This document shows, one piece after another, positions 10,530 through 59,760 of a DNA stretch of 64,000 nt. The stretch is taken from contig OZ024743.1 in the NCBI GenBank assembly GCA_964016885.1, positions 376,526,001-376,590,000 of the forward strand, in the 5' to 3' direction. Position 1 is the first letter of the stretch; the number at the start of each line of letters is the position of its first letter. The position numbers and the translations under genes were made by a program. The notes beneath the pieces are model-generated. The model saw only the letters and a list, made by a program, of their open reading frames with translations, did not search any database and was not told where the DNA came from. This DNA is from Eledone cirrhosa (lineage: Eukaryota).

Positions 10530-10597
10530 AGAGTGTATATGCTTATGTGTGTGTATATATATATATATATATATACACACACATAAGCATATACACT

Positions 10598-11482
<885 letters not shown>

Positions 11483-11588
11483 AATAATAATAATAATAAT
11501 TGTTTCTACTTTAGGCACAAGGCCAGCAATTACCCAGTGCATTACTGGTACTTTAAACGAAAGATATATACTTTATATCATCGCTATT

Positions 11589-12138: not shown

Positions 12139-12754
12139 AAAGAGATGAAATCGAAAATGCAACTGGAGTCTTATTTTTTTTTTTTAAATATATATATTTA
12201 TTTGGTTCCTTTACCGGTTTCGCAGTTCTTCTGCTTTTCAAAAGTAGAGTTGAGATGGAGGGTTTGTGGTTTTTCTCACATCTGGTTGGTCTCTGAATGT
12301 TACTTGTTTTATAAAAAAAAGCCTTCGTGAGCCACCTTTTTTTAAAGTAAAGAAATTCAAACACTCATATATGAAAAAAACAACCTGTGACAACCCCCCC
12401 CCCCCCTCTTATTTGAAGACTATTGTAACGCGAACTGGCGCGAAATTTATTATAATTATTGACAAACCAATCAAATTACTTCTCGAAAAACCTGGCATTT
12501 CGAGCCACTTTTTCCATATAAAACAAGTAACATTCAGAGACCAACCAGATGTGAGAAAAACCACAGACCCTCCATCTCAACTCTACTTTTGAAAAGCAGA
12601 AGAACTGCGAAACCGGTAAAGGAACCAAATAAATATATATATATTTTTTAAAAAATAAGACTCCAGTTGCATTTTCGATTTCATCTCTTTTTCTTTATAC
12701 TTTCACTCGTGTAGGACACCTCGGTTATTTTTCAATTTGTAAAAAAAACCTCAC

Positions 12755-12761
<7 letters not shown>
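12139..12761. mobile_element. Inverted-repeat element carrying U3-A8 variant hammerhead motifs (PLE pLTR-like)
   Basis: Inverted arms of about 170 bp (12139-12313, about 12516-12690). The right arm has CTT TTGAAAA GCAG AAGAA CTGC GAAA CCGG TA AAG and then AATAAA. Further copies at 16374-16690 and 46758-46962. Confidence 0.65.
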
Positions 12762-12842
<81 letters not shown>

Positions 12843-12853
12843 ATGTGTGTTTG

Positions 12854-12893
<40 letters not shown>

Positions 12894-12932
12894 ATATTAT
12901 ATAAATGGAAACTATATTTATAAAACCATATT

Positions 12933-12993
12933 TATATAATTATATATATTTCGAGGGTAACAAAACATTGGTACGCTCTCATCAGATAAAATA
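12933..12993 (-). ncRNA. Minimal type I hammerhead ribozyme (C-C family), tandem diverged copy
   Basis: Minus: TATTTTAT CTGATGA GAGCGTACCA...TGTTACCCTC GAAA TATATA TA; stem I partly decayed. Confidence 0.65.
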
Positions 12994-13071
12994 CAAAATT
13001 TGTTTTATAAATATTGACATAACCAAGAAAGAACTTAACGGTTCAAGTTTTTCATGGATATATATATATAT

Positions 13072-13398
13072 ATATACAATATTAATAAATGGAAACTATA
13101 TTTATAAAACCATATTTATTTCATTATATATATTTCAAGGATACCAAGTTAAATCATGGTATGCCTTCATCAGACAAAATACAATATATAACAGTTTTAC
13201 AAATAGATATTGACGTACCCTTTCAAAATGGTGACCGTTGTTTTTGAAAGGGTACGTCAATATCTATTTGTAAAACTGTTATATATTGTATTTTGTCTGA
13301 TGAAGGCATACCATGATTTAACTTGGTATCCTTGAAATATATATAATGAAATAAATATGGTTTTATAAATATAGTTTCCATTTATTAATATTGTATAT
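13072..13398. mobile_element. Perfect palindrome (157-bp arms, 13-bp spacer) with two outward-facing hammerheads; PLE-like relic
   Basis: Arms 13072-13228 and 13242-13398 are reverse complements; HHR at 13289-13353 (+) and 13117-13181 (-). Confidence 0.8.
13289..13353 (+). ncRNA. Minimal type I hammerhead ribozyme (C-C family)
   Basis: TATTTTGT CTGATGA AGGCATACCA..TGGTATCCTT GAAA TATATA TA ATGAAATA; 8-bp stem I, 10-position stem II with C-C at pair 4. Confidence 0.8.
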
Positions 13399-13483
13399 CT
13401 ACTCCAAATGTTTGTCGAGTGCTTTATATCAGTTATAATAATAATATTTGCTTGTTGTATCCCAACAATTTAAATAGAACTTT

Positions 13484-13548
<65 letters not shown>

Positions 13549-14594: not shown

Positions 14595-14720
14595 GGAAAA
14601 GAGTCAGGACCCCGACGGCCGAGCTCCGACAGCAAGATCCTATTACCCACTCTACTACACTAAGTATCGAGTACTCTGGTGCCTTATAGTCCACCTGGTT
14701 CGTTACCACACTTCCTTCGT
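14595..14720 (+). mobile_element. GGAAAA-palindrome family element, internally deleted, with tail
   Basis: GGAAAAGAGTCAGGACCCCGACGGC... followed by tail TATTACCCACTCTAC...CTTCCTTCGT. Confidence 0.7.
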
Positions 14721-14741
14721 TATATCTATATACCTGTGCAC

Positions 14742-15837
<1,096 letters not shown>

Positions 15838-55570: not shown

Positions 55571-58500
55571 GTTTCTTTTATTTGCCACCAGGGCATCAAA
55601 AGTGGGACAAGTACAATGGGGGGAGTTTACAAAACAAGGCGTCCTCAATAAGGAGGAGGCAATAACAAAATATAAAAATAAAATAAAATATAACAAAAAA
55701 TAAAATGTATAACAAAATCCTCAACAGAGAGGAGGCGCCTTGGGGGGTCGCACACACCCCCGAAAAAAGTGTGCAACCCTTCTTCTCAGGAGCACAGAGA
55801 GGGGGTGCTCCCTCGTTCCTTCCTCTTTTCCACCTACAGGCTTATGTAAAGAGAAGGCCCAATTACACGGGCCATTCTCGCCACTTTCACCCACCTTTCA
55901 TAAAAACGACTGGGGTGGAGCACCTCTCTTTCCATCCTGATCCTACTTCCGAAATGATATCGGAAGAAACGGACCAGTTGTTGGCCAGAGAGAAAGGTGC
56001 CTGACCTCAGTCCTTTCAGACGTGTCTACCATACAACTTCTTTCACCATGGCTATTACGCACAGAAACACCGCCTCTCCTTCATCTTTGAAGGGGGGAGG
56101 CGGCTTGATCATTACAATAGACTCGGTGGTCAACCGGATCGGTCCCACCCTTGACAGCAGTTGTTCGACATAGCCCCACAGATCGGCTACGCCCGAGCAG
56201 TGTACCAATGCGTGTGCAACGGTTTCCTCGTCGCACACGCATCTGGGACAGATCTTTTGGGCGGGGTCCCTACCCGGGCGCCCGTGTCTGTAGAGCTTTT
56301 CTCGAACGGGTAGAGCCCCTCGGTAGCACTGCCAGGCCAGGGACTTCTGGAAGTTGTCCATAGGTCCCGGGCTGAATGTCCTACCGAACAGGCTGGCCAG
56401 TTCGTCTTCCTCCATGTCTAGGGCTTCTCCGAGGGCGTCGTCGCACCTGCTGCGTACCAGCCCTCTATAGAATGTTGCGGTGGAGTCTCCACTGATAACC
56501 GGATCCGCCTGCCAGAGGGCGGTGAGCGCCTGGGCACACACAGTGTGCCAGGCGCCCAGTTTTCTCGGTCTTTGCTTGACCCAGGATTGCAGCTCGGTGA
56601 GTGAGACGAGTCTGGGAAAGGTTCGTCTCACAAACGATGGCCACACCGGTTGACCGGTGAGGAATACGTGGAGGTGCCGTAGCCTTAATGCATGTTTACG
56701 CATCATTAGCCACGGCATCCCCAGCCCTCCTTTCGAAGGGTGTTGACAGCAGATGGATCTCCTCACCAAGGGAGCCCGCCTCTTCCAAAGGAATTGGAAG
56801 AGTGCGCGCTTCATCTTGGCGAGGGTTTCCCTTGGGCAAGGCATTACGGTCAGGCGGTAGTAGATGACGGACGCTATATAGGTGTTCGCCACCTCCGCCC
56901 GACCTTTCAGAGATAGTTTGCAACTGGCCCACTTCTGGGTCAGTGCAAACACCCTGTTCGTAACCTCCGCCCAGTTCTCCTCCACCTGGAGGTCTGGTTC
57001 GAAACAGACCCCGAGCAACTTCACCGGGCCCTCCGTCCAGCGTCCGACGACGCCATCGGAGGGCATTGGTCTGCCCCTCCACGTGCCGAGTTGCAAACTG
57101 ATCGACTTGTTCCGGTTCAGCTTAGCCCCTGTGAACCTTTCGTACTCCTCCAGTAAGATGCCAATCGCCCCGATTTCGGAGGCTGTCGACACCATTACTG
57201 TCACGTCATCGGCGTAGGCCGACACCGCTTTCCGCAATCCCGGTTCCAAAGGGATGCCCTGCAACAACTCCAACTTCCGCAGTAGTGGCTTGAGAGTCAA
57301 CACATACAGAAGGGAGGAGAGAGGGCACCCTTGTCGGATGGACCGCGCGATTTTGAACGGCTCCGAGAGGTAGCCGTTCACCTTGACCCTAGAGCAGATG
57401 CGGCTGCTGTGCATAGCAGTGATCCAGCCCCTGAAAACGGGTCCGAAGCCTGCCGCCGCTAGCACCGCATCCAGGTAACCATGGTCGACCCTATCGAACG
57501 CCTTAGATTGATCCAAGTTGATCAGAGCCCCACCAAAGCCGGGTTCGTTCCCAACCCTCTCTATGATGTATCGCATGAGGTGGAGGTTGTCATGGATGGA
57601 CCTGGACGGGATAGCACATGTCTGCGCATCTCCCACCAGGTTTCCCACGACAAGCGCCAACCTCTTTGTTAGCACCTTGGCCAAAATCTGTAACTCTGTA
57701 TTTAGCAGAGTTATGGGCCTAAAGTTACTTATTTCGTCCCCCTTGTTCTCGTCCTTCCTCACTAGCGTGACTACGCCCTTGGTCACAGTACAGGGAATTC
57801 TCCCGTTCTGTTGCCAGTTGCAGTAGACCGCCTCGAGGAGATCGGGGAACAAGTCCGGCATAGCTAGATATAATTCGTATGGAAGACCATCGAGACCCGG
57901 GGATTTGCGTTTGCCGCATTGGCTCAGCACCTCCTCTATCTCAGCGGCCGAAATCGGCTCCTCGCAGGACTTCGCCTCTCTGTCCGAGAGACGCGGCAGG
58001 CCGTAGAGGTATGGACCGAAGTCCACATCCCCAACCGGCTCCCCGCCCCTCCCGAACAGTCGGGAAAAGTGCCTTTGAAAGGCCTCACACATCTGCTTAG
58101 GCTCAAGGATCGCCCGTCCATCCTGGTCTCGCAAAGACCGGATGGTGGATTTAGTTCCACTCTTGGCCACTGTCACGCGGGCCCAGCTAACAGCTTTGGT
58201 CCCCTCGTTCCCTAGAGCACGTATTTTACTTCGGACAACGCAGCCTTCGTGCTTCGCGTCGAAAAACTGGCTCAAAGCCGTTCTCGACGCTAGCACTCTG
58301 GCCACGTCGCCGCTTCTAATTGCCTCTTCTACACTATCTACCAACTCCCTTTCCTTCCTATTCCTATCCGCAGCTAGAACCTTACTAAATTCTATCGAGA
58401 CTACTCTAATCTCTCTCTTTAGAGATACCCACCACCTGCTGTTGACGATCGCTCCAGTCAACCGTTCCTTAACTAACGTACTAATCCGATCCCTGTAAGC

Positions 58501-59760
58501 TCTACTTGCCGGCAAGGACAAGTTGAGCTTCCAGTAACCGGGTTCCTGTCTATGCGTTCTATCAAGGTTGACCATGCAGGTCACCAACTTGTGGTCTGAA
58601 TAGCCAACCATGAGCATTTCTGGAAAACTTAAAAAGTCCCTGTCCTTATTTCTAACTAAAAGCCTATCTAGGTACGACCTAGATGATCCGCTGTGATTTG
58701 ACCAAGACCAGGTTGGCACCGTCGAAAAATCTAGTCGAAATCTATCGGCCAGGTCAAATCGGCCGAGTAACCCCTTCAGGCTGTTGCACCCCTCTCTATC
58801 GGGACATGCCCCTGCATAGTCCCAACGTGCATCCATGATACCATTCCAGTCCCCCACTAAAAGCAGGGAACGGGTCGTCCCTACAAAAGACTCCAGACGC
58901 TGGAAAAAGTCGGGCCGCTCTGTCCCAAAAGGGGCATATGCGGCTACCAGCCTAAAGGCTCCACCTTCACCACTGCCAAGGTCCAGCACCACCAGTCGAC
59001 CCCCTGGGTCCAAGTGAACTATCTGTGTGGCAAGACCCAGATGTTTTTGCAGCAGAACGACAACCCCACCCCCACCTCCGGGCTGACAGAGAGATGCGCG
59101 CATCTCAAAGTCGTCAAAGGTGGGGGCTAGCTGTCGCATGCTGCTGATCCGGGCCTCGTAGATAACCATCACATTTATAGATCGTGACCTGAGGTCATTT
59201 AGAAGCATTGCTTGCTTCCAAGATGAGCCCAGGCCACGCGCATTTAGACACCCTACTCTTAGCACAGCCATGTTGGTGGTAAGGAGAAAAGGCACTTACC
59301 TCTCTGCGTCCCGGGAAACGGGCCGCTCAATTTCCATGCTGGTTGGGGATGGGTTGTTGGGTGGGGTGGTGGTTTGTGGAAGTGAAGGGGCATCAGTGTG
59401 TTGTGGGGTTGGGGCGTTTGTGCTTGAGTGGGTGTCTGGGTGGGGTGGGGGTGAATTTTTTTAGGAGGACGCGGTTGATTGGTTTGGCGCAGGGGGGGGG
59501 GGGGGGCACGTCCTCCGTGAAATTTATTTTCAGTGTTTTATAAAAGTTCATTGGGACTTTAATCATTTTTAAATGAGGTAGTCCCACAGCAGTTATAAAG
59601 TTAGGCCCTTCAGTTTGGACCGAAGGGTTTGCTGAAATTGTTTTCAGTAGTTCTTTGTTGTCTGTGTTCATGTATGTATATTGTAAAGTCATTTTTGTGT
59701 AGCAGTTAGTGTTGTGTGACGGGGAGGGGTGGTTTGTATATTGTTTGTGTTCTCTTGGGG
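55571..59760 (-). mobile_element. Tx1-clade (L1-like) non-LTR retrotransposon, near-complete ORF2 and ORF1 remnant
   Basis: ORF2 as in the next feature; 3' UTR ends AATAAAGAAAC then (TA)n; upstream ...MEIERPVSRDAER* is probably the ORF1 end; 5' boundary uncertain. Confidence 0.85.
55834..59271 (-). pseudogene. ORF2: apurinic endonuclease, reverse transcriptase and CCHC zinc finger, one premature stop at 56026
   Basis: LNARGL, GDWN, YLDR, SDH (APE); KSPGLDG, NFRPITLLN, KAFDRVDH, RQGCPLS, AYADD (RT); CPRC..HALVHC. The frame continues past the TAG to the same GPSLYISL* end as the 14.9-kb copy. Confidence 0.9.

What the first reader, a model, noticed from the sequence alone, without database searches (positions are those of the whole stretch)
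12890..13398. Tandem-plus-inverted triple HHR cassette
Seen: a diverged unit (12890-13050, HHR on minus) sits in tandem with the left arm of a perfect 157-bp-arm palindrome. This gives two tandem minus-strand HHRs about 185 bp apart and one plus-strand HHR. The tandem units share flanks (ATAAATGGAAACTATATTTATAAAACCATATTTAT) but have different, compensated stem IIs. Established: partial-tandem plus inverted pLTRs are a hallmark of PLE insertion. Inference: two tandem ribozymes could excise an ~185-nt RNA and supply the dimer partner.
Basis: partly seen in the sequence, partly recalled or inferred. Interest (0 to 1): 0.75.

Follow-up and report, generated by a model that had tools for sequence, protein, structure and literature searches.

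The report
Nested Penelope stubs mimic ribozyme cassette
The three hammerhead-ribozyme motifs are real, but they come from two related jumping-gene (Penelope-like retrotransposon) families: a young back-to-back insertion likely landed in the TA repeat beside an older, decaying fragment, so the "tandem pair" is likely an accident of shared target choice, not an RNA-excising device.

Summary
Observation confirmed: perfect 157-bp arms, three type I hammerhead motifs, two on the minus strand with predicted cut sites 184 nt apart. It is not one cassette. The palindrome is a young head-to-head insertion (one tail-less end, one ~85-nt tailed end, 6-nt microhomology at the turn) of a Hydra-clade Penelope-like element; the arm is identical at 39 other listed places, and copies with intact 732-745-aa ORFs carry the Hydra motifs. 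The "diverged unit" is a solo stub of a sister family; its best relatives are 92-93% identical and it carries 6 private changes, 2 breaking helix I and 1 breaking helix II. No second copy of the junction was found among 40 scored candidates. RNA that reads through the palindrome is predicted to form a 157-bp hairpin that shuts both young ribozymes. The asymmetry fits two cDNAs primed from opposite sides, not an assembly fold-back. Excision of a 184-nt circle is unlikely in vivo; RNA was not tested. The scan has already reported such palindromes several times elsewhere in this genome.

The parts
12759..12889 (.). (TA)n/(TG)n tract, left target microsatellite
   Evidence: sequence
12890..13058 (-). 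Family A solo pLTR stub: 5' end at the TATCC point used by many A copies, tail-less 3' end, 6 private substitutions; inferred older insertion
12933..12993 (-). Type I hammerhead motif of the A stub; core intact, helix I 6 of 8 pairs, one private helix II mismatch; predicted cut after 12941
13058..13076 (.). (TA)9 spacer between A and B; inferred remnant of the tract into which B inserted
   Evidence: many solo A copies have (TA)n directly 5'
13072..13246 (-). Family B inverted, tail-less pLTR arm (left arm plus loop)
13117..13181 (-). Type I hammerhead motif, B left arm; helix I 8 of 8; predicted cut after 13125
13241..13246 (.). 6-nt microhomology at the inversion junction, read by both arms
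13241..13398 (+). Family B direct pLTR arm
13289..13353 (+). Type I hammerhead motif, B right arm; predicted cut after 13345
13399..13487 (+). Element 'tail' (~85 nt in the family), present on this end only
13488..13545 (.). (TA)n tract, right target microsatellite

Best explanation
This is likely two separate insertions of sister Penelope-like retrotransposon families into one TA microsatellite: an older solo pLTR stub (family A, 12890-13058) and a young head-to-head insertion of a Hydra-clade element (family B, 13072-13487). The B insertion likely formed when the element's enzyme primed two cDNAs from opposite sides of the TA break, one at each of its two internal start points (tail-less and tailed); both stopped near the RNA's 5' end and joined through a 6-nt microhomology. 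The ribozymes are passengers. Read-through RNA is predicted to pair the arms into a 157-bp hairpin that prevents either B ribozyme from folding, and the A ribozyme is decaying. Shown: family identity, ends, junction, mutations. Inferred: order of events, twin priming, RNA folding, lack of function.
For: B arm 100% identical at 41 listed places, 39 outside the window (40 of 728 candidates scored). Near-full copy L064 has pLTR-ORF-long 3' region-pLTR. Six copies have uninterrupted 732-745-aa ORFs: DKT, YRDD, CxxC and CxH in 6 of 6; RWR in 5 of 6; CxCx5C and GIY-YIG-like motifs in 5 of 6. The model (pLDDT 90) has telomerase RT as its top 7 Foldseek hits. 3' ends fall at only two points in 25 of 25 scored arms from 30 loci (14 tail-less, 11 tailed). 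Of 26 loci examined, both ends were scored in 19, and 18 have one tailed and one tail-less end. A stub: best other copies 92-93% (40 of 2058 scored); 6 substitutions shared by 0 of 47 copies in 171 nt, against 2 in 415 nt of B, p=0.0097. Junction search: only the window matches throughout. L076 and L098 have other B-like pairs in the TA tract 5' of an A unit with different geometry, spacings 303 and 280. Helix energy of the strands closing the A cut site is +4.5 against -2.7 kcal/mol for intact A. With both arms present, B helix I and II pair probabilities are 0.0.
Against: No empty allele or orthologue was available, so nesting order is inferred. The age test assumes that A's private changes arose after insertion; an unsampled source copy could explain some, and only 40 candidates per search were scored. 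Mixed-family head-to-head insertions without a TA spacer exist (L048, L144), so single events using two RNAs may occur. A's catalytic core is intact, and the hybrid helix that would cut the B site is a perfect 8 of 8. In the construct lacking the right arm, the A-B dimer fold scores better than two monomers (-49.2 vs -40.2), though both are far above the unconstrained -65.1 kcal/mol. One of 19 pairs (L076) has two tailed ends. Pfam gave no RT or GIY-YIG match for the B ORF itself.
Confidence: 0.85

Rival explanations
1. Single chimeric insertion: the reverse transcriptase copied an A-family RNA to its 5' end, added or jumped across a few TA units, then continued on a B-family RNA, giving A and B in tandem in one event.
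For: A's 5' end and B's tail-less end lie only 18 nt apart. Mixed-family head-to-head insertions exist (L048, L144). The whole unit would still have one tail-less and one tailed outer end.
Against: A carries 6 private changes against 2 in a 2.4-fold longer B (p=0.0097). No A copy above 93% was listed. Solo A copies with (TA)n directly 5' are common, and B ends nearly always abut (TA)n.
Confidence: 0.07
2. Functional tandem ribozyme cassette: a minus-strand RNA starting inside the palindrome folds as an A-B double hammerhead, is cut twice and releases a 184-nt RNA that is circularised, a nascent retrozyme.
For: Both units share the self-complementary helix III octamer and intact cores. Metazoan PLE hammerheads work as dimers, and tandem units of 170-400 nt give circles (PMC4209133 parts 1-2; PMC7229834 passages). 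The B arm begins near a point where 5' ends cluster modestly (4 of 25).
Against: Helix I at the A cut site has two U-U mismatches. The junction is single-copy among those scored, and the units are not a repeated monomer. Read-through RNA is predicted to lock B in the hairpin. In vitro activity of such motifs is low even as dimers, and cleavage was not needed for insertion of an anole PLE in vitro.
Confidence: 0.05
3. The palindrome is an assembly or read fold-back artefact.
For: Perfect arms in repeat-rich DNA; no read set spanning this locus was available.
Against: Flanks are not mirrored: the right arm runs into genuine element tail that the left arm lacks. The loop is element sequence joined at a microhomology. 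Many other loci show the same design with different junctions. Tail-less ends running into (TA)n occur in raw DNA reads of two runs (401 and 441 reads; family-level, not this locus).
Confidence: 0.02

Closest known systems
Hydra clade of endonuclease-bearing Penelope-like elements (Craig et al. 2021, PMC8557442; passages, section 11 and supplement part 2 of 59 read)
   Same: Single ORF with RT then GIY-YIG-type endonuclease; RWK-like, DKT, CxCx5C, CxxC and CxH motifs; (TA)n targets; type I hammerhead in the pLTR; a cephalopod family (Hydra-1_Obim) is listed there.
   Different: Unit about 4.1 kb (L064) against 'generally <3 kb'; tail ~85 nt against the usual 30-40; helix III is a loop-less AUAUAUAU palindrome with a long helix II. 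Not aligned to Hydra-1_Obim itself; its listed hammerhead differs by eye.
Typical PLE insertion unit: inverted 5'-truncated pLTR plus one-sided tail (PMC8557442, PMC3846280 passages; tail = distance between two RT start sites, PMC11167929 passages)
   Same: Head-to-head pLTR pieces, tail on one end, overlap or microhomology at the turn. Opposite-strand hammerhead pairs 100-700 bp apart were already noted in PMC4209133.
   Different: No ORF retained. The neighbouring tandem unit belongs to another family, so it is not the partial-tandem pLTR of those papers.
Non-LTR retrozymes of animals (PMC7229834 passages; bioRxiv 10.64898/2026.07.22.740005, part 1 of 5)
   Same: Two same-strand type I hammerheads at a spacing (184 nt) within the 150-450-nt range; origin from PLE pLTRs.
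   Different: Not a tandem repeat of one monomer, not found amplified as a unit, one ribozyme damaged; RNA circles not tested.
Twin priming of LINE-1 (recalled, no call)
   Same: Two cDNAs from opposite sides of the target give an inversion joined at a microhomology.
   Different: Here both primings would be at fixed internal sites of the pLTR, not at a poly(A) tail.

Membership tests
Hydra-clade PLE (family B) | Single ORF with telomerase-like RT | tested here: met
   732-aa ORF with YRDD; top 7 Foldseek hits are TERT, E 6e-10 to 1e-8; Pfam itself gave no RT match
Hydra-clade PLE (family B) | C-terminal GIY-YIG endonuclease | tested here: met
   VVY..YVG motif in 5 of 6 ORFs; Y612, Y625, G627, R636 and H640 invariant in 98 aligned sequences; homologue P0109 matches PF01541 at E 4e-4, just under the cut-off
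Hydra-clade PLE (family B) | RWK-like, DKT, CxCx5C linker, CxxC and CxH motifs | tested here: met
   RWR 5 of 6, DKT 6 of 6, linker 5 of 6, CxxC and CxH 6 of 6, against the list in section 11 of PMC8557442
Hydra-clade PLE (family B) | CCHH finger absent from the endonuclease | tested here: inconclusive
   No CCHH seen by eye in the translations; not aligned to CCHH-bearing PLEs
Hydra-clade PLE (family B) | pLTR with hammerhead; (TA)n targets; inverted copy and tail | tested here: met
Hydra-clade PLE (family B) | Placement in the Hydra clade by RT phylogeny | not tested
   No named reference PLE proteins were in hand
PLE pLTR (family A stub) | Linked to its own PLE ORF | tested here: inconclusive
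   Homologous to the B pLTR and tail (about 80% and 76%) with the same two-end pattern, but none of the 30 ORF-start loci showed an A-type helix II
Type I hammerhead ribozyme | Core CUGANGA/GAAA/UH with helices I-III | tested here: met
   for B; A stub has the core but helix I 6 of 8; no Rfam hit
Type I hammerhead ribozyme | Self-cleavage | not testable with these tools
   Needs an in vitro assay
Non-LTR retrozyme | Tandem repeat of one 150-450-nt monomer with a complete hammerhead in each unit | tested here: not met
   Units are from two families; only the window matched the junction among 40 scored; the A ribozyme is damaged
Non-LTR retrozyme | Expressed as linear and circular monomer RNA | not testable with these tools
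   No RNA run was offered

The most novel reading that the evidence does not exclude
Sister Hydra families in this genome share one self-complementary helix III octamer, so their hammerheads are cross-compatible. Because they also share the (TA)n target, nested insertion keeps creating hetero-tandem pairs (this locus, L076, L098) that can cleave as mixed dimers and release small circles: a birth route for retrozymes from unrelated pLTR stubs, caught here at the two-unit stage.
Probability: 0.06. Interest if true: 0.6.

Novelty: new member of a known kind. Interest (0 to 1): 0.15.

Why it matters
As found it matters little: it is one of many short Penelope insertions in this genome, next to an older relative. 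Two side results are useful. The strict one-tailed/one-tail-less rule (18 of 19 pairs) and the junction geometry here give a testable two-primer model for the inverted copies typical of PLEs, whose origin the papers read leave open. Intact, recently active Hydra ORFs (for example L164) would allow that test in vitro. If mixed-family dimers did cut and circularise, it would show how retrozymes arise.

Tried and rejected
Rfam: no hammerhead family hit; only hairpin-shaped miRNA-type models below their gathering scores. Pfam and PDB sequence searches with B ORF pieces, the intact ORF and its profile gave nothing meaningful; the Atlas gave no result. Sequencing runs: no RNA holder listed. Reads and contigs laid on the locus came from many copies of the family, skipped the TA spacer and did not span the junction, so neither the fold-back question nor an empty allele could be tested directly. 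Simple snap-back of one cDNA rejected for this locus: a tail-less cDNA cannot template the tail, and a tailed cDNA would make the right arm the longer one, whereas the left is longer. The idea that B inserted inside a longer A element rejected: nothing right of 13487 near the junction matches sequence upstream of A copies. No earlier scan notes for this window. A paper search for 'twin priming' with 'Penelope' listed 3 papers, none on PLE insertion by title or abstract start (not read; one search only). Supplements of PMC11167929, PMC4209133 and the 2026 preprint were not seen and may bear on tail lengths, dimer assays and mixed tandems.

Full report
Observation. The palindrome is real: arms 13072-13228 and 13242-13398 match perfectly over 157 bp around a 13-nt loop. 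Three type I hammerhead motifs are present, with predicted cuts after 12941 (-), 13125 (-) and 13345 (+); the minus pair is 184 nt apart. Each has a loop-less palindromic helix III (AUAUAUAU), which can pair well only with a second copy. Helices I and II covary across 6 units from the window and one other locus: 10 of 17 pairs change on both sides, 0 of 500 shuffles reach this, and slid controls give 1-3. Rfam does not detect the motifs.

The palindrome (family B). The arm is 100% identical at 41 listed places, 39 of them outside the window (40 of 728 candidates scored). The 'flank' right of 13398 is element sequence, a tail of about 85 nt ending at 13487 before (TA)n. L064 holds a near-complete 4.1-kb unit: pLTR, ORF (frameshifted in that copy), long 3' region, pLTR. 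Six other copies have uninterrupted ORFs of 732-745 aa. DKT, YRDD, CxxC and CxH occur in 6 of 6; RWR, the CxCx5C linker and a GIY-YIG-like motif each occur in 5 of 6. These match the Hydra-clade diagnosis in section 11 of PMC8557442, whose supplement lists (TA)n targets and a cephalopod family (part 2 of 59). The predicted structure (pLDDT 90) has telomerase RTs as its first 7 hits. Pfam did not recognise the ORF, and no phylogeny was run. The host was not determined; one scan note calls it an octopus (unchecked), and the best named homologue is from Argonauta hians at 38%.

How B likely inserted. In a sample chosen only by the ribozyme region, 25 arms were scored from 30 loci, and all 25 end at one of two points: 14 tail-less, 11 tailed. 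Among 26 loci examined for head-to-head pairs, both ends were scored in 19; 18 have one end of each kind and L076 has two tailed ends. PMC11167929 (passages) shows for an anole PLE that the tail is the stretch between two internal RT start sites. At this locus the left arm reaches 17 nt further 5' than the right, and the two overlap at a 6-nt microhomology, 13241-13246. Snap-back of a single cDNA does not give this: a tail-less cDNA cannot template the tail, and a tailed one would make the right arm the longer. Two cDNAs primed from opposite sides and annealed by their 3' ends do give it. This step is inferred. I took the two-primer reading from earlier scan notes and tested it. An antisense self-priming model has been proposed in print (PMC3846280 passages) and is not excluded in general. 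The unmirrored flanks also argue against an assembly fold-back, though no reads spanned the locus.

The diverged unit (family A). It is a solo, tail-less stub whose 5' end lies at a point where many A copies meet (TA)n. Its best listed relatives are 92-93% identical (40 of 2058 scored). Against 47 other copies it has 6 substitutions shared by none. Two break helix I (6 of 8 pairs, the worst of the 42 copies with an intact core; 39 of the other 41 have 8 of 8), one breaks helix II, and one turns a G-U into G-C. B has 2 such substitutions in 415 nt; under equal age p=0.0097. An unsampled source copy could account for part of this. No A-type ribozyme was seen beside the 30 ORF starts inspected, so A's own coding partner was not found.

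Is the tandem a unit? A search with the junction returned the window as the only full match (40 of 1405 scored, 29 other loci inspected). Two of those loci (L076, L098) have B-like pairs in the TA tract 5' of an A unit, but tail-first, at spacings of 303 and 280 nt; that query favoured such loci. Among 42 independent B places, only the window had an intact same-strand sister motif within 600 nt. This is what shared (TA)n targeting would give: occasional neighbours with no fixed geometry. Against this, L048 and L144 join arms of different subfamilies with no TA between, so two-template events may exist and a single chimeric event here is not excluded.

Could it cut out a 184-nt RNA? In a double hammerhead the helix I strands swap. 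The helix that closes the A cut site scores +4.5 kcal/mol against -2.7 with a typical A strand, while the helix closing the B site is perfect. At most one cut is therefore expected. In RNA covering both arms, arm-arm pairing is 1.0 and both B ribozymes' helices fall to 0.0. Published PLE minimal hammerheads cut weakly even as dimers (PMC4209133, parts 1-2 of 4). No RNA data were available.

Verdict. A young, ordinary Hydra-clade PLE insertion beside an older stub of a sister family; new member of a known kind. The scan has already reported such hammerhead palindromes on other DNA of this genome. Interest 0.15. The boldest reading not excluded, mixed-family dimers as a birth route for retrozymes, is about 6% likely.

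Noticed in passing
L048:1501-1987; L144:1790-2745; L035: Head-to-head arrangements whose two arms carry helix II of different families or subfamilies. In L048 and L144, read by eye, there is no TA tract between; L048 has a tail-less A arm and a tailed B-like arm. Would fit twin priming on two different RNA molecules.
   Followed up: partly
L007:1255-1460; L113:1805-1970; L116:1858-2040; window 11500-11555: A ~185-nt SINE-like element (B-box-like motif, label from recall) sits at about the same AAT-rich site of the B tail in three independent loci, with a short flanking duplication seen in L113 and L116; a piece of it lies in the window.
   Followed up: partly
window 11597 (-), 17857 (+), 36863 (-)/37062 (+): Four more hammerhead motifs of three other types with the same AUAUAUAU helix III; the last two form another head-to-head pair.
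   Followed up: partly
helix II of all units, e.g. window 13307/13330: The fourth position of helix II is unpaired in 6 of 6 aligned units (C-C in 5), although neighbouring pairs covary; may be a conserved structural feature.
   Followed up: no
window 12175-12655: Inverted-repeat element with 146-nt arms, 93% complementary, 189 nt apart, repeated at other loci; MITE-like.
   Followed up: no
window 56026-59295 (-); 14596-15540 (+); 10531-11337 (+): 1089-aa ORF with AP-endonuclease, RT and zf-RVT domains (non-LTR retrotransposon), and two fragments with weaker zf-RVT matches.
   Followed up: no
G000, e.g. L164:853-3051 (+): Many copies of the Hydra ORF have open frames of 730-760 codons; the family looks recently active and is a candidate for in vitro study.
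   Followed up: partly
window 13058-13062 and L064 near 5135: 5' ends of short A and B copies gather near a shared TATCC motif about 190 nt (B) before the tail-less end; possible transcription start, modest support (4 of 25 in the unbiased B sample).
   Followed up: partly
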